Source: an uncultured Candidatus Saccharibacteria bacterium
Lineage (GTDB): Bacteria > Patescibacteriota > Minisyncoccia > Phycocordibacterales > XYD1-FULL-46-19
DNA: 64,000 nt
Assembly: GCA_964639285.1 (NCBI GenBank)
Contig: CAZXCI010000003.1
Span: forward strand, 31,187-95,186
Direction of reading: 5' to 3'
Position 1 is the first letter of the stretch; every line of letters begins with the position of its first letter. Below the pieces are notes generated by a model that searched no databases, had not been told where the DNA came from, and saw only the letters and a list, made by a program, of their open reading frames with translations. The position numbers and the translations under genes are program-made. This document shows positions 26,140 through 62,032 of this stretch, piece after piece.

Positions 26140-26144
26140 CTTAT

Positions 26145-26579: not shown

Positions 26580-26581
26580 TA

Positions 26582-28414: not shown

Positions 28415-28417
28415 ATC

Positions 28418-29086: not shown

Positions 29087-29196
29087 CCCGTTAGAAACAG
29101 ATCGCGATCAAAAAATCGCTCTCTCTTCTTAATTTATTTTTTAATAATATCGGATTCATGTTTTGTTTCAATAAGTTATTTGAGCGATCGCGGTTT
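29087..29196. repeat. Intergenic 110-bp element bounded by a perfect 11-bp inverted repeat (CCGTTAGAAAC ... GTTTCTAACGG) with internal GATCGCGATC palindromes and an AT-rich core carrying a minus-strand promoter-like TTGAAA-16-TATTAT
   Basis: Seen directly; fills the exact gap between the PrgI-like gene stop and the VirB4 N-domain ORF start. Confidence 0.4.
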
Positions 29197-30164: not shown

Positions 30165-30193
30165 TTTTCTATTTATCTTTTAGCCTTTTATAA

Positions 30194-36276: not shown

Positions 36277-36280
36277 GTTA

Positions 36281-36973
36281 TTAATTACTGACAAAAATCT
36301 GGATTTTTTCGTTATCAGCAAAAGTTACCTTATTTAAAACAAAGAATTGGTTTAGCGTTTCGATAGATTTGATGAAGTCTGAATAATCATGGTTGAAGGT
36401 CTGGCTATTTTCCAGAGCGAGAGTCGGCTGAGACAAGGCTTGTTCCATATTCTTAAGACGACTGACAAGCAGATTTATTTGACTGACGATTTTGAAATGG
36501 CGGCTGGCCAATTCCTTGGGAACGGGAATTTTTGTCAGACTTAGAGCTACCTGCTCGTGGAGAATCCTAGAGAAGGTTACTGATTTGATGAACGAACCGT
36601 CATTTTTATCAATGGCCGACAGCACGGCCCTGGCCTCACTCTCTCTCCTCCCGCTTAGGGGTTTGAAGGTCTCGGCCAGACGAAGTCCGTAGGTTCGGAA
36701 GTCTTGCGGACTGCTTACTCCAGTAGTCGAACTAGCGATGATCGGTTTCTCGGCCAATTGACTGATCGAGACATTTGTTTTATTGGAGGAGAGTTCCTGT
36801 CGAGAGAGGTCCTCGAGGTTCTTATGTTTTTCTAAAATGTCGCTTAGATAAGCTTGTCGTTTTTTTTCTTCTCTGGATTTTTTTTGATGGCCGACAAACC
36901 ATAAAGAGACAATGGTAAGTACCACTAAAACAATCACTAGCCGTATCACATTTTTGCTTGGTAAATGGGCCAA
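36281..36973 (-). CDS. Membrane-anchored hypothetical protein (230 aa), first gene of the T4SS-like operon
   Basis: N-terminal TM (LVIVLVVLTIVSLWFV), coiled-coil-like remainder. Confidence 0.45.
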   Translation of the reverse strand: MAHLPSKNVIRLVIVLVVLTIVSLWFVGHQKKSREEKKRQAYLSDILEKHKNLEDLSRQELSSNKTNVSISQLAEKPIIASSTTGVSSPQDFRTYGLRLAETFKPLSGRRESEARAVLSAIDKNDGSFIKSVTFSRILHEQVALSLTKIPVPKELASRHFKIVSQINLLVSRLKNMEQALSQPTLALENSQTFNHDYSDFIKSIETLNQFFVLNKVTFADNEKIQIFVSN

Positions 36974-37058
36974 CTGTACTCAATATTATATAACGGTCAG
37001 CTACTTTATGCACTGAAAAAAGGTGGATAAATAAACAATTTTAATCTATTATTTAGGG

Positions 37059-38096
37059 ATGAGAAATTTTTTTTTAATTTTTCTAATTTTGTTGATGGTT
37101 CTTCTGTCTTTCCCTACTCCCTCTTCCGCTCAAGTTCTGCCTTTTGGTGGGAAAATCCTCTATACAGACTGGTGTTCTTGTTCAATGAATTTACTCATTT
37201 ATTATTTGCGGGTTCGCGATTTCATGCCTCAACTTCTCTCTTATCGGGTCGGAGGGAGTAAGCTGTATTCTTATTATAATCTTACCGAGGGGATGGAGAT
37301 CTTGGGGACGACCGTTTCTCCTGATGTTTGTTTGACAGGATCACATTGCCATCCTCATCCTCTTGTCGCGGCCATGGGAACTCCTTGGCTAATTAGTATT
37401 GTCGGGACTTCTGACCCTTCTCATCGAGCCTCTGGCTCTGGCTCTGGCTCCGGTTCGGGCTCAGGTACAGGTACAGGGACAGACACGGGGACAACTGGCC
37501 CCACTTCGACCACGACCCCAGACGGAGCTCCTCCTTGTTCTAGTGATGCTGACCGTCTCGCTTCTAGTTATATTATGGCCAATGAGGGTTGGAGTAATTC
37601 CTGTTATCCCGATGCCGGAGGACGCTCGGTTGGAGTTGGCCACTTCATCACTCCTGGGGACGGGATTGATTGTAGCCGTCCTCTCTCAGATGCTGAAGTC
37701 CAAGAGCTCTTTGAAGAAGATTATCCTCAATATCGGGCTGATGCTGAAGCTTCAGCCGCTCGTAACGGTGTCGATTGGGATGCTTTGTCGCCAGAGCGAC
37801 AGGCGGTGCTCACTGATATGGCTTACAATATGGGAGCTGAAGGGGGAGGGGGGCTGAACGGCTTCACTGAGATGTGGGGGGCGATAAGACAAGCTCAATC
37901 AACCAGTGGGACCCAAAGTCAGCATCATTGGAATACGGCTGGTGATGAAATTATCGAGACTACGACACCTTATGGACAAGGTGCTCGAGCCGGGCGAAAC
38001 AGGACAATAATGAGGACGAATGGTAGTTCGACCATCAATCGCCAAGTTAATTCCGATCCTCACGCTAGAAATTATTGCGCTGAAGAGACAACTTAG
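37059..38096 (+). CDS. Secreted GH24 (phage/T4-type) lysozyme-like muramidase with an N-terminal Cys/His-containing domain and a (SG)n/(TG)n/Thr-rich linker; candidate VirB1/PrgK-type cell-wall hydrolase
   Basis: Signal peptide; linker SGSGSGSGSGSGTGTGTDTGTTGPTSTTTPDG; C-terminal domain ANEGWSNSCYPDAGGRSVGVGHFIT...LSDAEVQELFEEDY...NGVDWDALSPERQAVLTDMAYNMGAEGGGGLNGFTEMW parallels T4 lysozyme (EGYYTIGIGHLLT...KDEAEKLFNQD...[31 protein letters not shown]). Confidence 0.65.
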   Translation: MRNFFLIFLILLMVLLSFPTPSSAQVLPFGGKILYTDWCSCSMNLLIYYLRVRDFMPQLLSYRVGGSKLYSYYNLTEGMEILGTTVSPDVCLTGSHCHPHPLVAAMGTPWLISIVGTSDPSHRASGSGSGSGSGSGTGTGTDTGTTGPTSTTTPDGAPPCSSDADRLASSYIMANEGWSNSCYPDAGGRSVGVGHFITPGDGIDCSRPLSDAEVQELFEEDYPQYRADAEASAARNGVDWDALSPERQAVLTDMAYNMGAEGGGGLNGFTEMWGAIRQAQSTSGTQSQHHWNTAGDEIIETTTPYGQGARAGRNRTIMRTNGSSTINRQVNSDPHARNYCAEETT

Positions 38097-38497
38097 GGCA
38101 AGACCCCAGCGTTTATTTCTAAAGCAAAACTAATTTTTTGGGGTGGGTAGATTACTTGTGGGTAAGAGCTTGGTTCAAAATTCTTTTCTATCCCGATAAT
38201 TTTTTTGTTTTCGTCAAGCCAAACAATATCAATAGGGAAATTCATGTCTTTCATCCAGAAACCAGGCTGGCTTGGTTGATCGAAGACGAAGAGCAGGCCG
38301 TGATCTCTGGGGAGACTCTTCCGGCCAGAGAGACCGAGAGTCTTCTTTGCTTTGGTATTGGCCACTTCGGCGGTGAAGGTCCTTGAGCCGATTTTTATTT
38401 TAGTAGTCTGATAATTGTCGAAACTATGTTGTCTCAGACCAAGACAAAGCCCGATAAGAAAAATAACGACAAAACTCCAAAGAATTATTTTTTTCAT
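38093..38497 (-). CDS. DUF192 (COG1430) family secreted protein
   Basis: AEVANTKAKKTLGLSGRKSLPRDHGLLFVFDQPSQPGFWMKDMNFPIDIVWLDENKKIIGI...ALEINAG matches the DUF192 signature. Confidence 0.6.
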   Translation of the reverse strand: MKKIILWSFVVIFLIGLCLGLRQHSFDNYQTTKIKIGSRTFTAEVANTKAKKTLGLSGRKSLPRDHGLLFVFDQPSQPGFWMKDMNFPIDIVWLDENKKIIGIEKNFEPSSYPQVIYPPQKISFALEINAGVLP

Positions 38498-38501
38498 CTT
38501 T

Positions 38502-39326
38502 TTATTCTTTATTTATTTGTTTATCATTTATCTCTTTTGCCAAACATTCCCAATTCTCAAGACTTAAGTTTTCGGCCCGGGCTCTTGGTGGAACTTGGCA
38601 TGCCTGGAGAGTGGCCTCTTCTACTTCGAGATTACTCTTGAGTAGTTTTCGCTTTTGTTTGAAGCCTTTTTTCAAAATTTCAAAAAATGTTTTTTCTTTG
38701 ATCTCGCTAAAGAAATCACGAGAAATATTTTCGATTAGGAGAATAGCTGAATCAACTTTTGGTTTGGGTTCGAAGGCTCCCGCCGGGACAGTTTTAACAT
38801 ATTTGGGGGTACCATAAACTTTGACCGAGATCGAGAGGAGAGATTCTTTTTTATCGCTGGCGATAATTCTCTTGGCCACCTCCTTCTGTATCATCAGGAC
38901 CATTCGGCCTGGCTGGCATTCTTCTTCGCTCAAGAATTTCCTGATTACTTGGCCGGTGATGTAGTAAGGAATATTGGCCACTAATTTGTAATTTTTCTCC
39001 GAGAAAAGTTTCGAGGCGTTGACTGTCAGGATATCGCCGTGAGCGATAAACATTTTTTTGTCATTTATTTCAGGCGCAAATTCTTCAAGTAAGTGATCGA
39101 GGAGTTCATCGTCCTTCTCGACGGCGAGAACCTGAGCCCCTGTCTCGATTAGGGCGCGAGTGAGGGCGCCTCTTCCTGGTCCAATCTCTAGGACTTCCTC
39201 CCCCTCCTTCAAGTCAGCTGTCTTGATGATTTCTCTAATTGCACTTTCTGATTTTAGCCAATTTTGCCCTAGGGATTTCTTGGCTCGGGGCTTCGTCTCT
39301 AAGTTTTTATTTTCTTCTTTCTCCAT
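38502..39326 (-). CDS. rsmA: 16S rRNA (adenine1518/1519-N6)-dimethyltransferase
   Basis: LGQNWLKSESAIREI, SAM-binding LEIGPGRGALT, NIPY motif. Confidence 0.85.
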   Translation of the reverse strand: MEKEENKNLETKPRAKKSLGQNWLKSESAIREIIKTADLKEGEEVLEIGPGRGALTRALIETGAQVLAVEKDDELLDHLLEEFAPEINDKKMFIAHGDILTVNASKLFSEKNYKLVANIPYYITGQVIRKFLSEEECQPGRMVLMIQKEVAKRIIASDKKESLLSISVKVYGTPKYVKTVPAGAFEPKPKVDSAILLIENISRDFFSEIKEKTFFEILKKGFKQKRKLLKSNLEVEEATLQACQVPPRARAENLSLENWECLAKEINDKQINKE

Positions 39327-39434
39327 TTCTCTAATTATGCCCTAAATAATCTTTTTTAGACAGAGGCTTGTTAAACTCCTGTCCTTTGCGATATAATCGA
39401 GGTATTAAAAGTCTTAATTTAAAATATAAATAAT

Positions 39435-39647
39435 ATGTTAAATGATATGGAAGGAACTCCTAACTTAGAAAATCCGGCTGAAATACAGAAAGTTATCGAG
39501 AGGACAAAGGCCGAGATTGATGAAATTTGCACCGAGTTAGAAGGAAAGAACAAAGAGCAAGAAGTTCTCTTGGCGTCTCTCAAAAAGGCGACCACCGAAT
39601 TAGCTAGGCTCATAAGCGTCTTAGAAGGGTTTCTCCCTTCTGCCTAG
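39435..39647 (+). CDS. Hypothetical 70-aa coiled-coil protein
   Basis: Clean ORF exactly filling the gap between two minus-strand genes; no family recognised. Confidence 0.3.
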   Translation: MLNDMEGTPNLENPAEIQKVIERTKAEIDEICTELEGKNKEQEVLLASLKKATTELARLISVLEGFLPSA

Positions 39648-39653
39648 AGCTTG

Positions 39654-41570
39654 TCAGACTATCGTCCAGAGGCCGGATTCGGCCTCAATGAGGTTCTCCT
39701 CGATATCGAAGATAAATTCGGACGGCATATTGACGCGACGTTGACCGAAAACCTGGCGAGTTTGAGCGTAAGAAAGATAGAGCTTGTGGCGGGCTCGAGT
39801 AATCGCCACGTAGAAAAGTCGGCGTTCTTCCTCGCCGTCTTTTTTGCTATCGCTTAAGCCGGCGTGCGGGAAGAGGTCCTGTTCGAGACCAGTGACGAAG
39901 ACATAATCAAATTCAAGCCCTTTGGCTGCGTGGACAGTCATTAATTTTACTCCAACCTTCGGCTGGTCGAGCTCGTCTTGGTCTGTTGCCAGAGCAATCT
40001 CGGTCATCATGGCCTCTATCGCCTCTTCTGGCTCTAAGTTGTCATATTTGGTGGCGACACTGACTAATTCTTTAATATTTTCTAATCTTTCTAATCCTTC
40101 TTCGCCGTCTTCCCTTAGACTTTTTTCTAGGCCGGTTTGGGTGAGGATAAATTTTATTAACTCAGAGGGTTTATTACTTAGAGCAAAATCTCCAATCTCG
40201 CTCACGATTTTCTTAAATTGGGAGATTTTCTGTCTCATCGTCGCTGGCAATTCTTCGAATTGTCCGCTGGCCAATTTAAGGAGCGTTATTTTACCAATGC
40301 CTCGAGCGGGTATATTGATGACACGTTTTGCACTTTCCCAATCATCAGGGTTAAGACTAACTCTAATGAAGGCGACGATATCTTTGACCTCTTTGCGTTC
40401 GAAGAAGCGGGTGCCGAGTACTTGGTAGGGCACATTTTCTCGAAGGCAAGCCTCTTCAAGCACTCGGGATTGGAAATTGGCTCGATATAATACAGCAATC
40501 TCGTTTGGGTGTGTTTCTTCCCCGATCAATTCCTTAGCTTTCTGGGCGACAAAACCAGCTTCATCCCCCTCCTCCATACCGGTATAGAGTCCGATTTTGG
40601 CCCCGGCTTTATTTTTAGTAAAAAGTTTTTTCTCGTGACGTTTTTTGTTTTTTTCAATGATTTGGTTAGCGGCAGTGAGGATTGTTTGGGTCGAGCGATA
40701 ATTTTCTTCAAGCAGAACAATTTTGGCCTTAGGATAATCTTTCTCAAAATGAAGAAGGTTGGTGAAGTCGGCTCCGCGCCAGCCGTAGATAGATTGGTCC
40801 ATGTCCCCTACCACACAGATATTCTTTTCTTTGTGGGCTAGAAGATTGGTTAGTTCGTACTGGATAACGTTGGTGTCTTGGTACTCATCGACGTGGATAT
40901 AGTGGAAACGGTCTTGGTAATGAGCGAGAACGTCAGGATTCTTTTTAAGAAGTTCCACGGTCTTTAGCAGGAGATCGTCGAAGTCGAGGGCTTTGTTGGT
41001 CCTTAATAATTCTTCATATCTGGCCCAGACTTGGCTAATAACTCTGGCAAAAGGATTATTCGAATTACTATTCTGGAATTCTTGCTGGCTAATGTTGTCT
41101 CCTTTTTGGCGAGAAATAGTGTTGAGCACCTTCCTTGGCTCATATCTCTTCTCGTCAAGACTCATGGCACGCATTGCCTCTTTAACCTTAGAGATTGAGT
41201 CGTCACGGTCGAGAATTGAGAAGTGGTGAGAGAGCCCAAGTCGGTCGCCATGGTGTCTTAATATATAGACTCCGAGAGAGTGGAAGGTGGTTACCATGGG
41301 TTCAACCCTTACTCGCCCCTCCAAGAGTTTAGTTACTCGTTCGCGCATTTCGCGCGCCGCCTTGTTGGTGAAGGTGATGGCCAAGATATTCTCGGGTTTA
41401 ATCCCTGACTCAATAAGGTGCAAGATGCGATAGGTGATGGTTCGTGTTTTGCCCGCGCCAGCACCAGCAATGACTAATAAGGGCCCGTCTTGATGCAAGA
41501 CAGCCTCCTTCTGTGGTGGATTTAATTGGTCAAGATAAGACATAAAATGTTTTAATTGATAGACGAGCAA
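39654..41570 (-). CDS. pcrA: ATP-dependent DNA helicase, UvrD/PcrA/Rep family (638 aa)
   Basis: LNPPQKEAVLHQDGPLLVIAGAGAGKTRTITYRILHLI helicase motif I, motifs II-VI (VDEYQDTN, TFHSLG ... VHAAKGLEFD). Confidence 0.85.
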   Translation of the reverse strand: MLVYQLKHFMSYLDQLNPPQKEAVLHQDGPLLVIAGAGAGKTRTITYRILHLIESGIKPENILAITFTNKAAREMRERVTKLLEGRVRVEPMVTTFHSLGVYILRHHGDRLGLSHHFSILDRDDSISKVKEAMRAMSLDEKRYEPRKVLNTISRQKGDNISQQEFQNSNSNNPFARVISQVWARYEELLRTNKALDFDDLLLKTVELLKKNPDVLAHYQDRFHYIHVDEYQDTNVIQYELTNLLAHKEKNICVVGDMDQSIYGWRGADFTNLLHFEKDYPKAKIVLLEENYRSTQTILTAANQIIEKNKKRHEKKLFTKNKAGAKIGLYTGMEEGDEAGFVAQKAKELIGEETHPNEIAVLYRANFQSRVLEEACLRENVPYQVLGTRFFERKEVKDIVAFIRVSLNPDDWESAKRVINIPARGIGKITLLKLASGQFEELPATMRQKISQFKKIVSEIGDFALSNKPSELIKFILTQTGLEKSLREDGEEGLERLENIKELVSVATKYDNLEPEEAIEAMMTEIALATDQDELDQPKVGVKLMTVHAAKGLEFDYVFVTGLEQDLFPHAGLSDSKKDGEEERRLFYVAITRARHKLYLSYAQTRQVFGQRRVNMPSEFIFDIEENLIEAESGLWTIV

Positions 41571-41597
41571 CTTATATCATAATATAATTAAAGACAT

Positions 41598-42029
41598 ATG
41601 AATAATCTTGAAAGTGAGATCGCTGAATTACAAAAAATGATCGAGGCCAAGCGCGATCAATTAGAGAAGGAGGTAGGCATTGTTGAAGAGAAGGAGTTGG
41701 TTCGTCAGTCGGTGCGAGAAATGTTTCTCGATACGACGACACCGCCTCTTTCTTCGTCGGCCAACCCTTTGCCTGCTCAAAGTCCCACCCCGGTTAGCAC
41801 GCCTTCGGTCAAAGTTCAGCCAAATTCTGCTAGCGCTAGTTACTTAGATTATCTCGATGCCGACACGACAGAGAAGATCAACCACTTGATCGAAGAGATT
41901 CCGGCTAAGGGTGTAGCTCTTGTCATTGACGAGGTCGCGGCACAGGAGCCTTTTGTCATCGACGCTTTCCATGATGCCCTTGTTGACAAGCTCTACGATG
42001 AGCTCAAGGCTCGTGGTTTAGTAAAATAA
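41598..42029 (+). CDS. Hypothetical protein (143 aa), 8 nt upstream of the coupling-ATPase gene
   Basis: N-terminal coiled coil, Pro/Ser-rich linker, C-terminal alpha-helical part; no family recognised. Confidence 0.45.
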   Translation: MNNLESEIAELQKMIEAKRDQLEKEVGIVEEKELVRQSVREMFLDTTTPPLSSSANPLPAQSPTPVSTPSVKVQPNSASASYLDYLDADTTEKINHLIEEIPAKGVALVIDEVAAQEPFVIDAFHDALVDKLYDELKARGLVK

Positions 42030-42036
42030 ATTAATA

Positions 42037-44400
42037 ATGCCCCCCCATCTAATTTTAAGTTTTGCAATTATTGTTGTCGTGGTCGCTGTGGCCGGTATTG
42101 TTCTTTGGTATAAGCGGAAGCATCGCCAATGGGAAAGTCTTAACCTCAAGATTCTTTCAATTAAGATTCCTCGGACCGGAAGCGAAGACAAAGTAGATTT
42201 TCTGAAGGAGATAAACTTGACCGAACAACTTTTTAATTCACTCTCTTCAATTAAACAGCCTTTTGTTTTTGAGCTGTCGGTTAAGAATGTGGGCGAAGAA
42301 ATTAATTTTTTCCTCTCGGTCCCTCGCTCGGTTGTTGATTTTGCTAAGCGGGAGATTCAAGGTCTCTTCTTAGACGCCAAGGTTGAGGAAGTTCCCGACT
42401 ACACCATCTTCCAACCGCAAGGGACGGCCGTGGCTGGTTATCTCGCCCTAGACAAAGAATATTTTTTACCGATCGGCACATACCAAGAGGCTCAAGCTGA
42501 TATTTTTGCCCCGATCCTAAGTACTTTATCTCGGGTTAATGAACGTGATGAGGGGGCTTCGGTTCAGATTGTCGTGCGCCCAGCTCCTGAGAAAACGAAA
42601 AAGACTCTCATTTGGGTCGCTGAAAAACTTAAAAGCGGGGCCAAGTTTTCCGATGTTTCTCGTCTTGGAAGCCTAAGTTTAAAAGATGTTAGTCAGGAGT
42701 GGAGTGGTAAACCAAAACCAAAGGAGGGGGAAGCCGGTCCCCCGCCCAAGATCGATGAAGAGATGGTCAAGGCGGTGGGACTTAAGCTGGCCAAACCGCT
42801 CTTCGAGGTTAATGTTCGTCTTGTTACCTCCTCGGTTGATGTTAACCGAGCGGAGGATATGTTTGTGGCTCTCTCGAGTGCTTTTTCTAAATTTTCTTCA
42901 CCGATTCGCAATGGTTTCAAAATTATCAAACCAAAGAAAAATCGTCACCTTGTCTTCAATTATGTCTTCCGTGATTTCAATCGTTATCAGACGATTGTTC
43001 TCAACACTGAAGAATTGGCCAGCATCTTCCACCTTCCAACTCACACTTCTGATGTCCCTAATGTCTCTTGGCTCCGGGCTAAGGAAGCCGCCCCTCCAGA
43101 AGTTATGCCCAAGGAAGGTCTCAAGTTGGGGGATAGTGTCTTCCGGGGAGCAATTAAAGAGGTTCGTTTGACCGACGAGGACCGTCGACGTCATCTCTAT
43201 GTTGTTGGGCAGACTGGTACTGGTAAATCTGTCTTGATTCAAAATTTGGCAATGCAAGACATGATTAATAATAAGGGTCTTTGCGTTATTGACCCTCATG
43301 GCGAGACAATTGAGAAGATCCTGGCTTACGTTCCTAAAGATCGGATTGACGATATTATTGTCTTCGACCCCGGTGATCGGGAGCGACCAATTGGGCTTAA
43401 TATGCTCGAATATGATTTTAACAAACCAGAAGAAAAAACCTTTATCGTTAATGAACTTCTGTCTATTTTTAATCAACTATTTGATAAGCAGGCGCTTGGA
43501 CCAATGTTTGAACGATATATGCGCGGAGCTCTCAATCTCTTAATGGACGATATGGTCAATGAACCGGCGACTTTGGTGGAAGTTCCCCGCGTTTTTACCG
43601 ATGACGAGTTTCGCAAGCGCAAATTAGCCCGCTCGCAAAATCAGCAAATCATCGATTTTTGGACAAAGGAAGTGCCTAAGACCTCGGGTGATCAGAGTCT
43701 TGGTAATTTTGCTCCCTACGTTTCGTCCAAATTTGATAATCTTATTTCCAATTCCTATATTCGCCCCATTATTGGACAACCCAAATCTTCTTTTGACTTC
43801 CGCCAAGCTATGGATGAAGGGAAGATTATTCTGGTAAACTTGTCTAAGGGTAAAGTTGGTGATCTCTCCTCATCTCTATTGGGCATGGTGATCGTAGGTA
43901 AAATTCTTAAAGCTGCTCTTTCTCGCGTTGATATTGCTGATGAGCGTTCTCGTCGGGATTTCTATCTCTATATTGATGAGTTCCAGAACTATACGACCGA
44001 ATCAATTGCTACTATTCTCTCTGAGGCCCGTAAATATCGGCTCAACCTTATTGTCGCCCATCAATTTATTGCTCAACTCAAAGACAACATTCGCGAGGCT
44101 GTATTCGGCAATGTGGGTAACATGATCTCCTTCCGAGTTGGCCCGCCTGACGCTGAGACCCTGGTTAAACATTTCGGTCCGGTCTTCAATGAGAAGGATC
44201 TCATTAGTATTGAGAATCTCAATGCTTTTACCAAGATTCTTGTCAATGGTGAACCGTCCAAACCTTTCAATATGAAGATTACTTGGCCCACGGGTGGCTC
44301 AGCCGTCGTTCGAGATGGTCTTAAGGAGCTCTCTCGCCTTCGTTTCGGCCAAGATCTCGACCAAATTGAGGAAGATATCCTTAAACGCCTGAGAGATTAA
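42037..44400 (+). CDS. Membrane-anchored type IV secretion coupling-protein-like ATPase (VirD4/TraG/TraD- or FtsK-like)
   Basis: N-terminal TM helix; Walker A HLYVVGQTGTGKSVLIQN; Walker B LYIDEFQNY; NLIVAHQ; overall 787-aa architecture typical of T4CPs. Confidence 0.55.
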   Translation: MPPHLILSFAIIVVVVAVAGIVLWYKRKHRQWESLNLKILSIKIPRTGSEDKVDFLKEINLTEQLFNSLSSIKQPFVFELSVKNVGEEINFFLSVPRSVVDFAKREIQGLFLDAKVEEVPDYTIFQPQGTAVAGYLALDKEYFLPIGTYQEAQADIFAPILSTLSRVNERDEGASVQIVVRPAPEKTKKTLIWVAEKLKSGAKFSDVSRLGSLSLKDVSQEWSGKPKPKEGEAGPPPKIDEEMVKAVGLKLAKPLFEVNVRLVTSSVDVNRAEDMFVALSSAFSKFSSPIRNGFKIIKPKKNRHLVFNYVFRDFNRYQTIVLNTEELASIFHLPTHTSDVPNVSWLRAKEAAPPEVMPKEGLKLGDSVFRGAIKEVRLTDEDRRRHLYVVGQTGTGKSVLIQNLAMQDMINNKGLCVIDPHGETIEKILAYVPKDRIDDIIVFDPGDRERPIGLNMLEYDFNKPEEKTFIVNELLSIFNQLFDKQALGPMFERYMRGALNLLMDDMVNEPATLVEVPRVFTDDEFRKRKLARSQNQQIIDFWTKEVPKTSGDQSLGNFAPYVSSKFDNLISNSYIRPIIGQPKSSFDFRQAMDEGKIILVNLSKGKVGDLSSSLLGMVIVGKILKAALSRVDIADERSRRDFYLYIDEFQNYTTESIATILSEARKYRLNLIVAHQFIAQLKDNIREAVFGNVGNMISFRVGPPDAETLVKHFGPVFNEKDLISIENLNAFTKILVNGEPSKPFNMKITWPTGGSAVVRDGLKELSRLRFGQDLDQIEEDILKRLRD

Positions 44401-44472: not shown

Positions 44473-45519
44473 GTGAAAAAGATCTGGATAGTCCCACTTT
44501 TTTTGTCTTTATTGCTAGTGGCGCAGACGGCCGAAGGAGGCATTTTCTCCTCTATTGTCGGCTTTTTTAGTCCTTCGGTGAGCAAAGTTAGCGCCAATGT
44601 CCTCCAAGAGGAAAACGAACAAACTGAGACAAATTCTCAAAATATGGACCTCTTAGAACCAGTGCTCGGGGAAACTTCGACGAGTTCCCCTCGTGACGAT
44701 GCAGAGATGTCCATTGTCAGTGGTGGTGCCGTTCTCCCTGAATCTGGGCCTTTAGGGACGATGGCTGATATTAAGGATACTCCAATGCCCTCAGATCTTA
44801 TTAGTGTCTATATTGTCCGTCCTGGAGACACCATTGGGACAATCGCTAAGATGTATAATGTCTCAGTCAATACTATTCGTTGGACTAACGAGCTTAAGAA
44901 AAGTGATGTTATTAAGCCAGGGGACAGCCTTATCATTCTTCCGATTACAGGTATCCAACACACAGTCAAGAAGGGTGATACAATTAAGAGCTTGGCCAAA
45001 AAATATGGGGGGAATTTTGAAGAAATTCTTGCTTATAATGATCTTGACCCCGCCAAGGGCTTGGTGGTTGGCGATACTATTATTATTCCTGACGGGGAGG
45101 AAAGTACGATCATCTCTTCGACTAAACCAGTGGCAAAGTCCCCATCTAAGTACAGTGGTCCAAGTTCCTCTGGTTACTTTATGAAGCCAGTTACTAATTA
45201 TCGCCGAACTCAAGGTCTCCATGGTTATCTTCACAATGCTATTGATATGGCCGCGTCTCTTGGCACCCCTATTTATGCGGCCGCTGAGGGTAAAGTTATC
45301 ATTGCTAAAGGTAGCGGTTGGAATAGTGGCTATGGTAATTATGTTGTTATCTCGCACCCTAACGGCACTCAGACTCTCTATGCTCATCTGAGTAAGTTAA
45401 ATGTCAGTGTTGGTCAACGCGTCGACAAGGGTGATAATATCGGAGGCATGGGTAGTACGGGCAAATCAACTGGTTCTCACCTTCACTTCGAGATTCGTGG
45501 CGCTTCGAATCCTTTCTGA
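44473..45519 (+). CDS. Secreted peptidoglycan endopeptidase: two LysM domains plus a C-terminal M23 (LytM) metallopeptidase domain
   Basis: Signal peptide; LysM repeats (YIVRPGDTIGTIAKMYNVSVNTIRWTN; HTVKKGDTIKSLAKKYGGNFEEILAYN); M23 motifs HNAIDMAA...YGNYVVISHPNGTQTLYAHL...GSTGKSTGSHLHFEI. Confidence 0.8.
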   Translation: MKKIWIVPLFLSLLLVAQTAEGGIFSSIVGFFSPSVSKVSANVLQEENEQTETNSQNMDLLEPVLGETSTSSPRDDAEMSIVSGGAVLPESGPLGTMADIKDTPMPSDLISVYIVRPGDTIGTIAKMYNVSVNTIRWTNELKKSDVIKPGDSLIILPITGIQHTVKKGDTIKSLAKKYGGNFEEILAYNDLDPAKGLVVGDTIIIPDGEESTIISSTKPVAKSPSKYSGPSSSGYFMKPVTNYRRTQGLHGYLHNAIDMAASLGTPIYAAAEGKVIIAKGSGWNSGYGNYVVISHPNGTQTLYAHLSKLNVSVGQRVDKGDNIGGMGSTGKSTGSHLHFEIRGASNPF

Positions 45520-54649: not shown

Positions 54650-55675
54650 ATGAATGACATTTTTAAATTAAAGAGGGAATTTTTGGAATATCTGGAGATT
54701 GAGAAGGGGCGGTCGTTGAAGACGGTAGAGAATTATGATCGTTACCTGACGAGATTTTTCAAACAAGCGGGCGTCAAGTCCCCTGCCGATATTACCGATG
54801 ACGCAGTAAGGCAGTATCGGTTGTGGTTGAATAGGCAAAGCGCTAACCCTACTTCGCCCGCTGACAACGGGCTACGAAGGGTTCAAAGTAGCTCTGCTAC
54901 TTTGAAGAAAAATACACAGAATTATCATCTGATTGCCTTGCGGGTGTTTCTCAAGTATCTGGCCCGGCGCTCTATCTCCTCTCTGCCACCGGAGAAAATA
55001 GAATTGGCCAAGACCGCCGGGCGAGATCTCGACCTGATCTCTGATGCCGAATTATCTCGGCTGATTGAGATGCCAGGCAAAGATCTCTCGGGCAAGTCTC
55101 AGGGCAAGAAGGCTGGCTCAGGTAAGAATGATGAGGTCAAGAGGTTGCGAGATAAAGCAATGCTTGAACTCTTCTTCTCCACGGGCTTACGTGTCTCGGA
55201 GTTGTGTTCGCTTGATCGCGATACCATCAACCTCGCTCGTGACGAGTTCTCTATCAGGGGTAAGGGTGAGAAAGTACGCTTGGTCTTTCTCTCCGACAAA
55301 GCGCGCGAAGCAATTAAGGATTATCTCGTCAAGCGCCAAGATATGGACGAGGCACTCTTCACCAATCTCTCGCTTATCAATTCTAATTCCTCGGGTTCTC
55401 TCAAGGTTAATAAGGGTGGTGGCAGTGATAGGCTGACACCAAGAAGTGTCGAGAGAATTATCAAGAAATATGCGATTAAAGCGGGCATCACCAAGAAGGT
55501 TACGCCCCATACTCTTCGTCACTCCTTCGCTACCGATCTTCTGCAAAATGGCGCGGATATTCGTTCGGTGCAAATGATGCTTGGGCACTCTAGTGTCTCA
55601 ACAACGCAAATTTATACTCACGTGACCGACAAACACTTAAGAGATATTCATAAAAAATTTCATAGTCGGTCATAA
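54650..55675 (+). CDS. xerC: Tyrosine site-specific recombinase, XerC/XerD family (with an inserted Ser/Gly-rich linker)
   Basis: N-terminal SAM-like core-binding domain; catalytic R...HxxR...Y block LRHSFATDLLQNGADIRSVQMMLGHSSVSTTQIYTHV. Confidence 0.85.
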   Translation: MNDIFKLKREFLEYLEIEKGRSLKTVENYDRYLTRFFKQAGVKSPADITDDAVRQYRLWLNRQSANPTSPADNGLRRVQSSSATLKKNTQNYHLIALRVFLKYLARRSISSLPPEKIELAKTAGRDLDLISDAELSRLIEMPGKDLSGKSQGKKAGSGKNDEVKRLRDKAMLELFFSTGLRVSELCSLDRDTINLARDEFSIRGKGEKVRLVFLSDKAREAIKDYLVKRQDMDEALFTNLSLINSNSSGSLKVNKGGGSDRLTPRSVERIIKKYAIKAGITKKVTPHTLRHSFATDLLQNGADIRSVQMMLGHSSVSTTQIYTHVTDKHLRDIHKKFHSRS

Positions 55676-58819: not shown

Positions 58820-58891
58820 CGGGGTGTAGTGCAACGGCTAGCACGAGTCCTTTGGGAGGATTTAATCCGAGTTCGAATCTCGGCACCCCGA
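58820..58891 (+). tRNA. tRNA-Pro (anticodon TGG), C1:G72
   Basis: Acceptor CGGGGTG/CACCCCG, D-arm GTGC-AACGGCTA-GCAC, anticodon arm AGTCC-TTTGGGA-GGATT, T-arm CCGAG-TTCGAAT-CTCGG. Confidence 0.75.
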
Positions 58892-58895
58892 CAAA

Positions 58896-59555
58896 ATGTT
58901 GAATGGCTTAATTCAAACTTTAACAGCCAGTCTCTTGCTTTGGGCGGAGAGTGCCCCGGTTCCGCTTTTTGTTTTTGTTGGCTCGATAGTAGAAGAGCTT
59001 ATCCCGATGATTCCTTCATCGGTTGTGATGATTACGGCTGGTTTCATGGCTCAAGTCCAGGGCGATCATTGGTGGTGGTTATTAGTTCTTGCTCTTCTTG
59101 CTTCAATAGGCAAGACGCTCGGTTCTTGGGTTTTCTATTTTCTTGCTGACAAGGCCGAAGATTTGGCCACTGGTCGTTGGGGAAAAGTCTTGGGCCTTTC
59201 TCATCAAGAAATTGAACATGCGGGAGAAGTTTTGAGTAAGAAAAAATTGGATACCGTCTTCCTCTTCACAACTCGAATTATTCCAGTTTTGCCCACCACT
59301 ATTTTCTCGGTAGCTTGCGGGTTGATAAAGCTGGATCTCAAACTTTATCTTAAGGTGACGTTGGCTGGTTTCTTTATTCGTTCATTGATTGTCATTGTTA
59401 TTGGTTATCTTGGTGTAACGGGTTCTCATTGGATTGCTACCATGCTTGATCAAACTGAGACGGCAATTCTTGGCATTTTAGTTTTGACTGTAGTTATCCT
59501 TTTAGGATATTTTTATTGGCGACGTCGGCGACAAAAAAGAAAAGATATTGATTAG
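58896..59555 (+). CDS. dedA: DedA/TVP38-family membrane protein
   Basis: VPLFVFVGSIVEELIPMIPSSVVMITAGF...LFTTRIIPVLPTTIFSVACGL, DedA core motifs. Confidence 0.75.
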   Translation: MLNGLIQTLTASLLLWAESAPVPLFVFVGSIVEELIPMIPSSVVMITAGFMAQVQGDHWWWLLVLALLASIGKTLGSWVFYFLADKAEDLATGRWGKVLGLSHQEIEHAGEVLSKKKLDTVFLFTTRIIPVLPTTIFSVACGLIKLDLKLYLKVTLAGFFIRSLIVIVIGYLGVTGSHWIATMLDQTETAILGILVLTVVILLGYFYWRRRRQKRKDID

Positions 59556-59576
59556 ATTTTAAAATCATTTAAAATC

Positions 59577-59648
59577 GGAGTGTAGTGTAACGGTAACATC
59601 CACGATTCGGGTTCGTGGGACTCAGGGTTCGAATCCCTGCACTCCGAC
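59577..59648 (+). tRNA. tRNA-Pro (anticodon CGG), C1:G72
   Basis: Acceptor CGGAGTG/CACTCCG, anticodon arm CACGA-TTCGGGT-TCGTG, T-arm CAGGG-TTCGAAT-CCCTG. Confidence 0.75.
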
Positions 59649-59683
59649 AAAACTGAAGGTTTTGGAGGAGGGTGAAAAATCAC

Positions 59684-59754
59684 GGGCTGTAGTATACCGG
59701 TAGTACGTGCCCATGGGGTGGGTATAGACCGAGTTCGATTCTCGGCAGCCCGAC
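59684..59754 (+). tRNA. tRNA-Pro (anticodon GGG), C1:G72
   Basis: Acceptor CGGGCTG/CAGCCCG, anticodon arm TGCCC-ATGGGGT-GGGTA, T-arm CCGAG-TTCGATT-CTCGG. Confidence 0.7.
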
Positions 59755-59928
59755 AAAAGAAAAAGACAGGGGAGTATTTCCTTGTCTTTTTCTTTTGTCG
59801 TGAGAATCGAACGGGAAGGGGTCGGGAAACGGGAGTTTCCCGTGGCGGAATTATTCAAACCGAGGGGTTTGAAAGCGGAGCGAGTGACAATGAAGCGAGC
59901 AGTGAGTGTTCTCGGCAGCCCGACAAAA
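59740..59928 (+). repeat. Exact 20-bp direct repeat TTCTCGGCAGCCCGACAAAA: copy 1 at 59740-59759 is the 3' end of tRNA-Pro(GGG), copy 2 at 59909-59928 is 149 bp downstream; the intervening segment forms a long imperfect palindrome that includes the tRNA terminator
   Basis: Identity seen directly; classic signature of integrase-mediated insertion at a tRNA 3' end (attL/attR-like), here with only a remnant between the repeats. Confidence 0.6.
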
Positions 59929-59974
59929 AAGTCCTTATTGACATTGTACACACAATGTATATACTTAGTGCATT

Positions 59975-60223
59975 ATGACGACTTTAAATATAAGAATTGA
60001 AAACAAGGCTAAGGCTGATGCGAATAGGGCTCTTGCTCGCATGGGTCTTGACATGTCCAGCGCGGTCAAGCTCTTTCTCTCTCAGGTGGTGAAGGAGGAC
60101 GGCCTTCCTTTCTTGCCAACAAATAATCCGATAGTTATTAAAGCGCGTTTTGATGCACAAGTGGCCGAAGCCAGGAAGAGTCGCGGATTCAGGACGGGCA
60201 AAGGGGCACTGCGTGGTTTATAA
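59975..60223 (+). CDS. dinJ: Type II antitoxin, RelB/DinJ family
   Basis: TLNIRIENKAKADANRALARMGLDMSSAVKLFLSQVVKEDGLPF matches the DinJ/RelB ribbon-helix-helix antitoxin pattern. Confidence 0.7.
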   Translation: MTTLNIRIENKAKADANRALARMGLDMSSAVKLFLSQVVKEDGLPFLPTNNPIVIKARFDAQVAEARKSRGFRTGKGALRGL

Positions 60224-60229
60224 TTTGTC

Positions 60230-60517
60230 ATGCCTTTTCTCATAAAACGAACTAAGGATTTCGAAAAATCTTTCAAAAGAATTAGTCGCTCTGGTTTAAG
60301 TCTGAGAACGAGAGGGAAATTGGAGACGATAATTGATTCTCTTGCTAGTGGCGAGAGACTAGAAAGTAAACACAAAGACCATCGACTAAAAGGGGAGCTT
60401 AATGCTTACCGCGAATGTCACATCATCCCCGACCTTTTGCTTATTTATAAATTGGAGGAAAAAGAAGATGTCTTAATCTTGGTTGATATTGGGAGCCACT
60501 TCCAGTTATTTGGCTAG
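60230..60517 (+). CDS. yafQ: Type II toxin, YafQ/RelE family mRNA interferase
   Basis: ...KDHRLKGELNAYRECHIIPDLLLIYKLEEKEDVLILVDIGSHFQLF matches the YafQ signature (KDHPLTGNWKGYRECHIKPDWLLIYK...RTGSHSELF). Confidence 0.7.
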   Translation: MPFLIKRTKDFEKSFKRISRSGLSLRTRGKLETIIDSLASGERLESKHKDHRLKGELNAYRECHIIPDLLLIYKLEEKEDVLILVDIGSHFQLFG

Positions 60518-60638
60518 CTTTCTCTCTTATAATCTCTACTTGACAAGATACTAGTCATTATGCTATACTTAAAGGGTATTAAGGTGCTAATCGATGGTCG
60601 GTTAGCAAAACTTGGTCTTTGAAAGGAGGTGAAAAGTT

Positions 60639-60926: not shown

Positions 60927-61141
60927 CTGGCAAGGTCTGAGCTGTGACAGCTCACTAAAGGGTAATTGACTCTCCCAAAATTTTTGGCTAGAGTCAGAAC
61001 AAGAACCTCACCTTCCAGCCCAGTTCCCTGTCTTCCCCAGAACCCCATGCTAGCTAGTATGGGGTTCTTCTTTTGTGTGTAAAACGTTTCATCGCTAGCA
61101 GGGCTCTTGAGAAGAAATTTTTAAATTGGTAATCTGGGGGT

Positions 61142-62032
61142 GTGAAACAAGACTTAGCTTCAAAAATAAAAGCTGATTTGCGCCAAGTGGCCAGCAAAGA
61201 TAAGGCCAAGATTTTGGCGCGCTTCTTCAAAACGGGGAGAGGGGAGTATGGCGAGGGCGATAAGTTCTTGGGCGTGGTGGTGCCAGAGCAGAGGCGGATT
61301 GCGAAGGAATGGCTTAGAGGTTTCACCTCGGCCTGCCCGCAATGCTTTGCAACGCAAGGCAGGCGGGGCTCACTTGAGGAGAAACCTCAAGCCGTGCGAA
61401 GTCTCAATACTCGTTTAGTTGTGAGAAGTCGTTTCTCGCGTAGCCAGATGCGACTTCGCACAACCCTCGATGAGCTTCAAAAACTTTTGCAAAGTCCGTT
61501 TCATGAAGAGCGACTAACAGTACTTCTGATTTTGATTGAGTTGTATAAGAAGGGAGATAAGGAGAATAAGAAACAAATTTTTAATTTTTATATCAATAAT
61601 ATTAAAAACATTAATAATTGGGATCTTGTTGATTTAAGTGCGCCGAATATTGTAGGCGATTATTTATTAAACTTTTATCTAAACGGGAAAGAGGTTAATA
61701 AGTTTTTATTAAAACTAGCGCGGTCAAAAAATCTTTGGTCCCGCCGGGTGGCGGTCTTGGCTACTTTCCCTTTTATAAAAAATAATAAATTTGCCGAAAT
61801 CTTGGCACTTACCAAATTTTTACTTTTTAAACAAAAAGAAAAACATGATCTCATGCACAAGGCCTTGGGTTGGATGCTCCGCGAAGTGGGGAAGCGCGAC
61901 AAAAAAGTTTTAATTAATTTCTTGGATGAGTCTGGGGCGCGACTTCCTCGCGTTACTCTTCGTTATGCGATTGAAAAATTTCCCGAGAAAGAAAGGCGGG
62001 AATATCTGACTCTTCGGTATTGTTCAGAGTAA
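61142..62032 (+). CDS. alkD: DNA alkylation repair protein, AlkD/AlkC-like HEAT-repeat glycosylase family, carrying a roughly 46-aa in-frame insertion
   Basis: N-terminal ...KILARFFKTGRGEYGEGDKFLGVVVPEQRRIAKEW and later ...NNWDLVDLSAPNIVGDYLL...WSRRVAVLATFPFIK parallel AlkD (...MKNHFLFLGIRTPVLRKIAKRIY...VDNWDSVDSFAPHVVGDLL...WVRRAALLALL); GTG start. Confidence 0.6.
   Translation: MKQDLASKIKADLRQVASKDKAKILARFFKTGRGEYGEGDKFLGVVVPEQRRIAKEWLRGFTSACPQCFATQGRRGSLEEKPQAVRSLNTRLVVRSRFSRSQMRLRTTLDELQKLLQSPFHEERLTVLLILIELYKKGDKENKKQIFNFYINNIKNINNWDLVDLSAPNIVGDYLLNFYLNGKEVNKFLLKLARSKNLWSRRVAVLATFPFIKNNKFAEILALTKFLLFKQKEKHDLMHKALGWMLREVGKRDKKVLINFLDESGARLPRVTLRYAIEKFPEKERREYLTLRYCSE

What the first reader, a model, noticed from the sequence alone, without database searches (positions are those of the whole stretch)
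59577..60517. tRNA-Pro cluster with a duplicated tRNA 3' end and an adjacent DinJ-YafQ toxin-antitoxin pair: mini-island / integration scar
There is an exact 20-bp direct repeat of the tRNA-Pro(GGG) 3' end (59740-59759 and 59909-59928), separated by a 149-bp palindromic remnant. It is immediately followed by a dinJ-yafQ module and a gene with a canonical SD sequence, which is atypical for this genome. This is the classic footprint of integrase-mediated insertion, and later decay, at a tRNA gene. Three tRNA-Pro isoacceptors (TGG, CGG, GGG) lie within 950 bp.
Basis: seen in the sequence. Interest (0 to 1): 0.55.

Follow-up and report, generated by a model that had tools for sequence, protein, structure and literature searches.

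The report
Miniature tRNA-end integrating hairpin element
The 150 bp between the two copies of the tRNA-Pro end is not a decayed island but an intact copy of a tiny, highly conserved, protein-less insertion element found behind tRNA genes across the Patescibacteria (CPR); members of this family arrive carrying their own copy of the target gene's end, and the neighbouring toxin-antitoxin pair is an older resident.

Summary
The 20-bp repeat is real (59739-59758 and 59909-59928; 0 of 100 shuffles give one). A related genome (L005) has an identical tRNA-Pro(GGG) running straight into the relB promoter, with no repeat and no spacer. So about 170 bp was inserted here. That relative keeps relB, the 95-aa gene and the AlkD-like gene, so the toxin-antitoxin pair is not cargo, and no integrase fragment is present. 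The spacer is not debris. Its core (59810-59879) belongs to a family whose 24-mer GGGTCGGGAAACGGGAGTTTCCCG occurs exactly in over 230 metagenome and MAG loci, nearly all Patescibacteria. About 60% of copies sit just downstream of a same-strand tRNA gene (37 anticodons); others sit at protein-gene ends. The layout is always gene end X, optional terminator hairpin, X' (a short inverted copy of the left edge of X), a conserved two-hairpin core, then X2 (a second copy of the gene end). The stems covary and tolerate G.U only on the tRNA strand. At protein-gene targets X and X2 differ by 37 synonymous versus 4 non-synonymous codons, so the element brings a foreign copy of the gene end, as phage 21/e14 do at icd. 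There is no Rfam hit, no linked gene, and no paper found. The recombination mechanism is inferred only.

The parts
59683..59754 (+). tRNA-Pro(GGG), the target gene. On the integration model its last ~16 nt are now supplied by the element.
   Evidence: ARAGORN; Rfam RF00005 49 bits; 72/72 identical to the L005 copy
59739..59758 (+). X: repeat copy 1 (end of the T-loop, T-stem 3' strand, acceptor 3' strand, discriminator, plus 4 nt of trailer)
59751..59800 (+). T1: A-tract / hairpin / T-tract terminator-like hairpin (arms 59751-59771 and 59780-59800). Absent from the relative L005.
   Evidence: the same class of hairpin is seen in the long-spacer elements
59802..59812 (+). X': GAGAATCGAAC, an exact inverted copy of T-loop/T-stem positions 59733-59743. 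It abuts the core. The 7 nt that would pair with the acceptor strand (GGCAGCC) are missing.
   Evidence: family-wide position profile
59810..59879 (+). Conserved core: GGGAAGGGG, P1 hairpin 59823-59830/59835-59842 (loop GGGA), purine linker, P2 hairpin 59854-59859/59868-59873 (loop CCGAGGGG)
   Evidence: covariance model R1: 78 bits, E 4.5e-19, the only copy in the window; covariation
59880..59908 (+). Variable 3' part with GCGNAGC-type mini-hairpins, ending in GTGAGTG (family consensus GTGAGAT, a T-loop with TC changed to GA)
59909..59928 (+). X2: repeat copy 2, the displaced resident 3' end of the tRNA gene, followed by the resident trailer
59759..59928 (+). Extent of the insertion relative to the empty site in L005 (170 bp, counting one repeat copy; the alignment gap is 166 nt)
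   Evidence: alignment A3
59936..59965 (+). relB promoter (TTGACA-16-TATACT) with a palindromic operator. Resident and conserved in L005; not part of the element.
   Evidence: (I10)
59975..60517 (+). relB (59975-60223) and yafQ (60230-60517) type II toxin-antitoxin pair. A neighbour, not cargo.
   Evidence: Pfam; relB is syntenic in L005, yafQ is absent there

Best explanation
Window 59759-59928 is one intact copy of a previously unannotated family of miniature, protein-less integrative elements. The family is widespread in Patescibacteria. Each element consists of (i) a homology arm, which is a copy of the end of a host gene (here the last ~16 nt of tRNA-Pro(GGG) plus a little trailer) together with that gene's flanking signal (here a terminator-like hairpin); (ii) X', 11-16 nt complementary to the inner edge of the arm; and (iii) a conserved ~70-nt core of two hairpins plus a variable tail. 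The element enters the chromosome by a single crossover within the arm (Campbell-type). The gene is then finished by the element-borne end (X + T1), and the resident end (X2) is displaced to the far side of the core. SHOWN: family membership, the layout, the empty site, structural constraint on the tRNA-sense strand, and the foreign origin of one gene-end copy at protein-gene targets. INFERRED: the core is the recognition scaffold for a recombinase supplied in trans. X' and the arm form a hairpin in a single-stranded (DNA or RNA) form that presents or aligns the target sequence. This would resemble the folded attP of CTX-phi or an integron attC, whose integration products have exactly this order: site, loop, inverted arm, cargo, site. 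The relBE pair, the 95-aa gene and the AlkD-like gene are resident genes.
For: Insertion: L005 has an identical tRNA followed directly by the relB promoter, with a 166-nt gap. Genome titles are nearly all Patescibacteria/CPR. The window copy scores 78 bits. Target preference: 76 of 120 loci, then 123 of 210 unique contexts, have a same-strand tRNA ending within 130-200 nt upstream, covering 37 anticodons and never on the opposite strand. Flanking repeat: median 15 nt exact and 19 nt extended, versus 7-8 nt in shuffles. X2 is at least 85-100% identical to the tRNA over its last 15 nt and random outside that stretch. X' is 94-100% complementary to the T-loop/T-stem and abuts the core with no gap in 61 of 91 elements. 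Structure: all 7 P2 pairs covary (156 double-sided changes versus 57 in shuffles). P1 variants keep pairing. G.U versus A.C counts are 11:0 in P2 and 62:11 in the closing stem, so the tRNA-sense strand is the folded one. Foreign arm: X versus X2 at hppA (two genomes), dnaK and rplL differ by 37 synonymous and 4 non-synonymous codons. Terminators after X and after X2 are homologous but diverged in 12-15 of 96 loci. No linked gene: no protein family recurs next to the element across 209 contexts. Not annotated: no Rfam match at E<=1, and no paper contains the core sequence.
Against: No excised or circular form and no within-population empty site was seen. Only one close relative provides the empty site. 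The recombinase is unidentified; the Xer-type tyrosine recombinase at 54650-55675 is housekeeping-like and is no evidence. An element-borne arm does not explain how closely related cores come to sit at 37 different tRNAs with matching X, X' and X2 (for example L223 Met versus L201 Val); some copy-from-target step may exist. In the window both X and X2 are followed by variants of the same trailer, which also fits a local duplication. tRNA arms share only ~15-20 nt of identity, which is short for RecA. The family was found through an exact 24-mer, so its conservation is overstated.
Confidence: 0.62

Rival explanations
1. Classic reading: an integrase-carrying island integrated at tRNA-Pro(GGG) and then decayed. 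The 150 bp are debris, and relBE plus the SD-bearing gene are surviving cargo.
For: There is a direct repeat of the tRNA 3' end. Toxin-antitoxin modules are common island cargo (established knowledge). The SD sequence is atypical for this genome.
Against: The toxin-antitoxin pair and the 95-aa gene lie outside the repeats and are syntenic in L005, which lacks the repeat. The spacer is a full-length member of a conserved family rather than debris. No integrase fragment is present. No third repeat copy lies downstream.
Confidence: 0.04
2. A resident, functional small RNA gene or cis-element that is co-transcribed with, or follows, tRNA genes. It would be a structured RNA closed by a stem that mimics the tRNA T-arm, with a free acceptor-like 3' tail (for example a processing, decoy or regulatory RNA). 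The duplicated gene ends would be part of its function and it would not be mobile.
For: There is strand-specific G.U tolerance and covariation. The orientation is always the same as the tRNA. X2 often has its own terminator. X2 stays identical to the tRNA right up to the discriminator, even where X' does not pair with it. Copies within one genome are divergent subfamilies, not recent bursts.
Against: The element is present in the window but absent in a relative with an identical tRNA. It occurs at dnaK 5' and hppA/rplL 3' ends with foreign, synonymously diverged arms. It sits at 37 different tRNAs with no fixed partner. The 24-mer is identical across CPR classes, which suggests horizontal spread. 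A functional RNA and mobility are not mutually exclusive.
Confidence: 0.17
3. A cassette moved only by natural transformation and RecA: DNA from relatives carrying gene end + core is taken up and inserted by ordinary homologous or illegitimate recombination. No dedicated recombinase is involved, and the core is simply a selfish or useful payload.
For: The arms are diverged alleles of the target. There is a 39-nt perfectly identical crossover block in hppA. No linked enzyme is found.
Against: A double crossover would replace rather than duplicate the gene end, and a single crossover needs a circle. tRNA arms share only ~15-20 nt. The strict geometry (X' abutting the core, the tandem G.A next to it) and the extreme core conservation point to a specific machine.
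Confidence: 0.12
4. A local replication error (fold-back or template switching) at the tRNA terminator produced a direct-inverted-direct triplication. There is no element.
For: The order direct X, inverted X', direct X2 is what a double template switch gives. In the window both X and X2 are followed by related trailer sequence.
Against: The ~70-nt sequence between X' and X2 is conserved in more than 230 unrelated loci. X and X2 are diverged alleles at protein-gene targets.
Confidence: 0.03

Closest known systems
Prophages and islands that integrate into a gene end and carry a replacement end (phage 21 / e14 in icd; P4-like elements in tRNA genes). From my own knowledge of the literature, not re-read here.
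   Same: The target gene end is duplicated. The identity block stops at the end of the gene. The two copies differ mostly at synonymous sites (37:4). The displaced resident end is left on the far side.
   Different: The element here is only about 100-170 nt. It has no integrase and no genes at all. It has a conserved structured core and a short segment complementary to the arm. It uses dozens of different targets.
CTX-phi and other IMEX elements, and integron cassettes (attC): integration of a folded single strand by a host or trans recombinase. Own knowledge.
   Same: The predicted integration product (site, hairpin loop, inverted arm, cargo, site) has the same order as X, T1, X', core, X2. 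There are imperfect pairs (tandem G.A or G.U) next to the presumed crossover. Structure is strand-specific. The enzyme is not carried by the element.
   Different: The target is a gene end (T-loop to 3' end), not dif or attI. No RYYYAAC/GTTRRRY core sites were identified, and there is no array. A single-stranded intermediate is not shown.
CIMEs / MITE-like non-autonomous elements. Own knowledge.
   Same: It is small and protein-less, it depends on functions supplied in trans, and it is multi-copy across genomes.
   Different: There are no terminal inverted repeats in the conserved part. The flanking repeat is not a short fixed-length target-site duplication but a homology arm of 15-100 nt that can be a diverged allele. 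The core is conserved across classes of a phylum, so this is not a deletion derivative of a local ICE.
IS110 bridge RNAs and TIGR-Tas tandem-spacer guides (PMC12045711)
   Same: Two target-related segments flank a conserved scaffold. One is complementary to each DNA strand: X' to the sense strand, and the arm to the antisense strand.
   Different: There is no adjacent IS110 or Tas (Nop-domain) gene, no array, no CCA/UG box motifs, and the segments are longer. This is an analogy only.

Membership tests
tRNA (Rfam RF00005) | Cloverleaf covariance-model score above the gathering threshold, with an anticodon assigned | tested here: met
   Three tRNA-Pro genes score 49-61 bits against a 29-bit threshold. 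ARAGORN assigns anticodons TGG, CGG and GGG.
RelB/DinJ-YafQ type II toxin-antitoxin | Antitoxin with a RelB domain placed upstream of and adjacent to a YafQ/RelE-fold toxin | tested here: met
   PF04221 at E 2.3e-11 and PF15738 at E 5.9e-27, with a 6-nt gap and the antitoxin first.
RelB/DinJ-YafQ type II toxin-antitoxin | Autoregulated promoter/operator; ribosome-dependent mRNA cleavage by the toxin | not testable with these tools
   A promoter-like site with a palindrome is present at 59936-59965. Function was not tested.
Integrase-mediated tRNA genomic island | Direct repeats of the tRNA 3' end flanking the inserted DNA | tested here: met
   The 20-nt exact repeat flanks 150 bp.
Integrase-mediated tRNA genomic island | An integrase gene (or its remnant) and cargo genes between the repeats | tested here: not met
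   No ORF with any Pfam hit lies between or next to the repeats. The toxin-antitoxin pair lies outside the repeats and is conserved in the relative that lacks the insertion.
Gene-end-replacing integrative element (phage 21/e14-icd type) | The two copies of the gene end are diverged alleles that both kept coding constraint | tested here: met
   37 synonymous versus 4 non-synonymous codon differences at hppA (two genomes), dnaK and rplL in family members. This cannot be tested at the 20-nt tRNA arm of the window copy.
MITE | Terminal inverted repeats belonging to the element, plus a short fixed-length target-site duplication | tested here: not met
   The inverted segment X' is target-specific and not conserved. 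The flanking repeat is 13-100 nt and can be a diverged allele.
CTX-phi/IMEX or integron attC (folded single-strand integration) | Product order of site, loop, inverted arm, cargo, site, with imperfect pairing near the crossover | tested here: met
   The order X, T1, X', core, X2 holds. X' pairs perfectly with the gene-side T-loop but through a tandem G.A or G.U with the core-side copy.
CTX-phi/IMEX or integron attC (folded single-strand integration) | Single-stranded intermediate; Xer or IntI catalysis; dif/attI target or attC core sites | not testable with these tools
   A Xer-like recombinase is encoded at 54650-55675, but no link to the element is shown. The target is not dif-like.
Any Rfam 15 RNA family | Covariance-model match | tested here: not met
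   Only chance miRNA-hairpin matches far below their gathering thresholds appear over 59732-59813. Nothing matches the core at E<=1.
IS110 bridge RNA / TIGR-Tas guide | An adjacent IS110 or Nop-domain (Tas) gene, arrays, and box C/D-like CCA/UG motifs | tested here: not met
   No recurrent neighbouring protein is found in 209 contexts. Copies are single. The description in PMC12045711 does not fit.

The most novel reading that the evidence does not exclude
The element is the substrate and guide of an undiscovered, programmable recombination system of Patescibacteria. In a single-stranded or RNA form, X' pairs with the sense strand and the arm pairs with the antisense strand of the target gene end. 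The conserved core recruits a recombinase encoded elsewhere. The result is a guide-directed insertion that replaces a gene end, and it can be re-aimed at any gene end (37 tRNAs, dnaK, hppA and rplL have been seen).
Probability: 0.2. Interest if true: 0.95.

Novelty: new variant of a known kind. Interest (0 to 1): 0.78.

Why it matters
Patescibacteria have tiny genomes and few recognised mobile elements. A protein-less element of about 150 nt, conserved to the nucleotide across classes of the phylum, would be a new kind of genome parasite or tool in a major, uncultured part of the bacterial tree. It rewrites the ends of tRNA genes and essential protein genes while keeping them functional. In practice, it explains recurrent assembly breaks at these sites and unannotated 'intergenic' repeats behind tRNA genes in CPR MAGs. 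It also supplies a covariance model for annotating them. If the target-matching segments act as guides, it points to a compact, re-targetable insertion mechanism. For this window specifically, it corrects the annotation: there is no island and no integrase scar carrying relBE, only a small self-contained insertion.

Tried and rejected
(1) The element is not of phage origin: neither the 26-mer nor the 24-mer of the core occurs in IMG/VR.
(2) It is not a known RNA family: no Rfam hit.
(3) The hairpin-forming in-frame insert in the AlkD-like gene (61310-61470) is not the same element. It has no covariance-model hit and no match in any fetched locus.
(4) The G-quadruplex reading of GGGAAGGGGTCGGGAAACGGG is dropped. 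The fourth G-tract (the P1 loop) is not conserved in variants, while P1 pairing is.
(5) The minus strand is not the functional strand: G.U versus A.C counts are 11:0 and 62:11 in favour of the plus strand.
(6) X2 was not copied from a mature primer tRNA in the retroviral PBS manner. The left edge near position 58/59 was suggestive, but X2 is not followed by CCA unless CCA is encoded in the gene, and some arms run into the trailer.
(7) It is not a simple target-site duplication: the arms are diverged alleles at protein-gene targets.
(8) No enzyme gene is linked. Clustering ORFs within +/-3.5 kb of 209 contexts found nothing recurrent. Five tRNA-Ser loci have a large serine recombinase converging on X2, which probably reflects a separate island at the same site.
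(9) It is not a TIGR-Tas or box C/D guide; the features do not fit.
(10) The first genome-contig scan, using the DedA protein, found no relatives. The 95-aa protein has almost no detectable homologues. Exact-protein look-ups found no empty-site variant in the source population.
(11) Literature searches found no description. PMC13011429 concerns anticodon-loop group I introns and is unrelated.
Full report
OBSERVATION. The window carries tRNA-Pro(TGG) at 58820-58892, a DedA/VTT membrane-protein gene at 58896-59555, tRNA-Pro(CGG) at 59576-59648 and tRNA-Pro(GGG) at 59683-59754. The 20-mer TTCTCGGCAGCCCGACAAAA occurs at 59739-59758 and again at 59909-59928. The first copy covers the last 16 nt of tRNA-Pro(GGG) plus 4 nt of trailer. 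No shuffle produces such a repeat, and it is the only exact direct repeat of 20 nt or more in the 64 kb. The 150-bp spacer holds a 21-bp-arm hairpin (59751-59771/59780-59800). It also holds an exact 11-nt inverted copy (59802-59812) of the tRNA T-loop/T-stem (59733-59743), as shown. relB (PF04221) and yafQ (PF15738) follow, behind a near-consensus promoter with a palindrome.

IS IT AN INSERTION? The DedA protein has few relatives. One of them is a Logan contig with 79% protein identity (L005), and it is syntenic. Its gene order is tRNA-Pro(TGG), tRNA-Pro(CGG), DedA, tRNA-Pro(GGG), relB, the 94-aa gene, then the AlkD-like gene. Its tRNA-Pro(GGG) is 72/72 identical to the window's and runs straight into the relB promoter. 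The alignment has a single 166-nt gap exactly where the window has hairpin, spacer and second repeat. So about 170 bp was inserted in the window lineage or precisely lost in L005.

The same comparison shows that relB, the 95-aa gene (with its Shine-Dalgarno sequence and leader) and the AlkD-like gene are resident. They lie outside the repeats and are present without the insertion. Only yafQ differs: it is absent from L005. No ORF in 59.6-61.3 kb resembles an integrase.

WHAT THE SPACER IS. A 24-mer from its centre, GGGTCGGGAAACGGGAGTTTCCCG, has exact matches in 120 JGI/ENA metagenome contigs and 119 GTDB-representative genome contigs. Genome titles are almost all Patescibacteria: Parcubacteria/Paceibacteria, Saccharibacteria, Berkelbacteria, Moran-, Kaiser-, Uhr-, Falkow-, Taylor-, Zambryski-, Nomura-, Harrison- and Liptonbacteria. 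A few automatically labelled MAGs differ. There are no matches in IMG/VR, no Rfam family at E<=1, and no paper contains the sequence.

All loci share one layout. In order: a gene end X; often an A-tract/GC-hairpin/T-tract terminator; X', a short inverted copy of the inner edge of X; and GGGAAGGGG followed by hairpin P1 (CGGGAAAC-GGGA-GTTTCCCG). Then come a purine linker (YRNNGGAA) and sometimes an extra hairpin, followed by hairpin P2, which has a variable stem and a conserved loop (A)CCGWGGG. Last come variable GC-rich mini-hairpins, often GTGAGAT, and finally X2, a second direct copy of the gene end. A covariance model built from 40 short-form copies (A1/R1) finds exactly one copy in the window, 59810-59879, at 78 bits and E 4.5e-19. 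It finds 220 copies in the fetched loci, including second and third diverged copies in some loci.

TARGETS AND GEOMETRY. In 76 of 120 loci, and then in 123 of 210 de-duplicated contexts, a tRNA gene on the same strand ends within 130-200 nt upstream. These cover 37 different anticodons, and the tRNA is never on the opposite strand. The flanking direct repeat has a median of 15 nt exact and 19 nt extended, against 7-8 nt in shuffled controls.

Ninety-seven tRNA-linked copies were aligned on tRNA coordinates. X2 is 85-100% identical to the tRNA over its last 15 nt (T-stem 3' strand, acceptor 3' strand, discriminator, and CCA only where the gene encodes it). It is about 60% identical over the next 3 nt and random before that. 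After the tRNA end, identity drops to background in most loci. X' is 94-100% complementary to T-loop/T-stem positions and fades across the acceptor strand. X' touches the core with no gap in 61 of 91 elements. Many copies have GTGAGAT ahead of X2, which is the T-loop with TC changed to GA. As a result, X' pairs perfectly with the real T-loop but through a tandem G.A with the core-side copy. The distance from the tRNA end to the core is bimodal. It is 10-37 nt without a hairpin, or 44-77 nt with a terminator-like hairpin, as in the window.

STRUCTURE AND STRAND. All seven P2 pairs show double-sided changes: 156 cells against 57 +/- 7 in shuffles, and better than every slid register. Diverged copies change P1 in compensating ways (CGGGGAAC/GTTCCCC, CGGGAAAAC/GTTTTCCCG, G.U wobbles), while the loop varies. 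Non-Watson-Crick pairs inside otherwise paired stems are G.U on the tRNA-sense strand and almost never A.C. The counts are 11:0 in P2 and 62:11 in the X':X2 closing stem. The folded molecule, RNA or single-stranded DNA, therefore has the sense of the tRNA.

WHERE THE SECOND GENE END COMES FROM. About 40% of contexts are not tRNA-linked. Some of these are truncated contigs or tandem copies, and others lie at protein-gene ends. In two genomes the element follows the H+-pyrophosphatase gene (L059, L090). X is the last ~96 nt of the gene including the stop codon. X' is complementary to the first 15 nt of X. X2 is a second complete copy of those 32 codons plus stop.

The two copies are about 80% identical and differ by 13 synonymous / 2 non-synonymous codons in L059 and 15 / 0 in L090. 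The same pattern holds for the first 17 codons of dnaK (7 / 1, L008) and the last 10 codons of rplL (2 / 1, L013). The total is 37: 4, and three of the four replacements fall in the codon touching the element. A displaced, useless fragment would not keep coding constraint. The two copies must therefore have diverged as working genes in different lineages.

One gene-end copy thus arrived with the element. In L059 a perfectly identical 39-nt block next to the core marks the likely crossover. For tRNA targets, the terminators after X and after X2 are homologous in 12-15 of 96 loci, sometimes with compensating changes in the hairpin. That again fits two alleles. This is the signature of Campbell-type integration with gene-end replacement, known from phage 21/e14 at icd and from tRNA-targeting islands (own knowledge).

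MECHANISM (INFERRED). A circle or hairpin made of arm, X' and core, recombining within the arm, gives exactly the observed order: gene, X (element-borne) with its terminator, X', core, X2 (resident), resident flank. That order (site, loop, inverted arm, cargo, site) is also what integration of a folded single-stranded attP produces (CTX-phi) and resembles attC recombination. Three features fit this analogy: the strand-specific pairing, the imperfect pairs beside the presumed crossover, and the absence of any linked enzyme gene in 209 contexts.

The extreme conservation of the core suggests a dedicated protein partner. None is identified. The window encodes a Xer-type tyrosine recombinase 4 kb upstream (54650-55675), but that is expected in any bacterium.

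Two things remain unexplained. First, similar cores and even similar terminator hairpins sit at tRNA-Met, tRNA-Val and tRNA-Glu, each with fully matching X, X' and X2, so re-targeting is easy and may involve copying from the target. Second, in the window both X and X2 are followed by variants of the same trailer. This fits either an arm taken from a close relative or a local duplication.

RIVALS. The decayed-island reading is contradicted (see above). A resident tRNA-linked ncRNA is compatible with the structural data, but not with the presence/absence difference or the foreign arms. It may, however, be the form in which the element acts. Spread by transformation and RecA alone does not explain the strict geometry or the 15-20-nt tRNA arms. 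A pure replication error cannot explain a 70-nt sequence shared by hundreds of genomes.

LIMITS. The family was collected with an exact 24-mer and both scans were capped, so its breadth is underestimated and its conservation overestimated. MAG labels are those of the depositors. Only one close relative gives the empty site. There are no expression data. Two sets of Logan contigs identical to the window break inside the core (at 59813-59844). This is what a repeat shared by co-occurring genomes does to a de Bruijn graph; it is not evidence of polymorphism.

VERDICT. The thing inserted is a complete miniature element of a large, apparently undescribed Patescibacteria-wide family, and the toxin-antitoxin pair is a bystander.

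Noticed in passing
window 61310-61470 (inside the AlkD-like gene 61142-62032); L005 2085-2160: This is an in-frame, GC-rich, strongly hairpin-forming insert (-75 kcal/mol over 161 nt) between conserved parts of a DNA-alkylation-repair protein. The relative L005 has a shorter, different palindromic insert at the same position, while the rest of the protein is about 90% identical. Three Logan contigs end at 61357, inside it. It does not belong to the R1 family and was not found in other loci.
   Followed up: partly
window 58820-59754 versus L005 1-992, L006, L007: The order of the tRNA-Pro cluster differs. It is TGG-DedA-CGG-GGG in the window, but TGG-CGG-DedA-GGG in L005, and CGG sits directly before DedA in L006 and L007. 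In every case the DedA start codon lies 1-3 nt after a tRNA-Pro 3' end. This suggests rearrangement through the similar 3' ends of the tRNA-Pro paralogues.
   Followed up: partly
window 60230-60517 versus L005 1296-1330: The yafQ toxin gene is cleanly absent from the relative, which keeps relB with the same promoter and operator. The relative therefore has an orphan antitoxin, or else the window gained the toxin.
   Followed up: partly
window 60518-60638 and 60927-61070: The 95-aa gene of unknown function has a perfect SD (AAGGAGGTGA) in a genome where only 1 of 43 long ORFs has any SD-like motif. Its promoter and leader are more conserved against L005 than its coding sequence is. The 3' region has hairpins with compensating changes against L005 and ends in a strong terminator (61039-61068). 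This may be a structured regulatory RNA. There is no Rfam hit.
   Followed up: partly
L025 (Ga0154954_104, 105281 bp, positions 26048-27338): A second, different copy of the element lies on a JGI contig whose length (105281 bp) differs by one base from the 105282-bp NCBI contig that carries proteins identical to the window's. It sits next to the 5' end of a small gene on the opposite strand and is outside the 64-kb window. If this is the same contig, the genome carries at least two copies.
   Followed up: partly
L027, L009, L010, L049, L067 (tRNA-Ser loci): A distinct subfamily of the element sits between tRNA-Ser and a displaced tRNA-Ser 3' end, and a ~550-aa large serine recombinase gene converges on that displaced end. 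Either a recombinase-bearing island has integrated in tandem at the same site, or this recombinase is a candidate helper.
   Followed up: no
L126, L232, L077/L153: These loci show tandem or nested arrangements. In L126 and L232 the terminator after X2 is nearly identical to the one after X and is again followed by an X'-like segment. L077/L153 has two different element copies separated by a ~45-nt partial tRNA-Gln copy.
   Followed up: no
window 26582-44400: This block contains type IV secretion-like genes (VirB4/TraC-like 26582-28414, PrgI-like 29197-29637, coupling protein 42037-44400, M23/LysM peptidase 44473-45519) among large ORFs with no Pfam match. dnaA and dnaN lie at 19451-22152, so the replication origin is probably near 22.2-22.7 kb, and the tRNA cluster lies on the leading strand.
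   Followed up: no
window 13327-13356 / 13475-13504: This is a 30-nt inverted repeat, 93% complementary, with 118 nt between the arms. It is the longest in the window and lies between the T2SS-E ATPase gene and ruvB.
   Followed up: no
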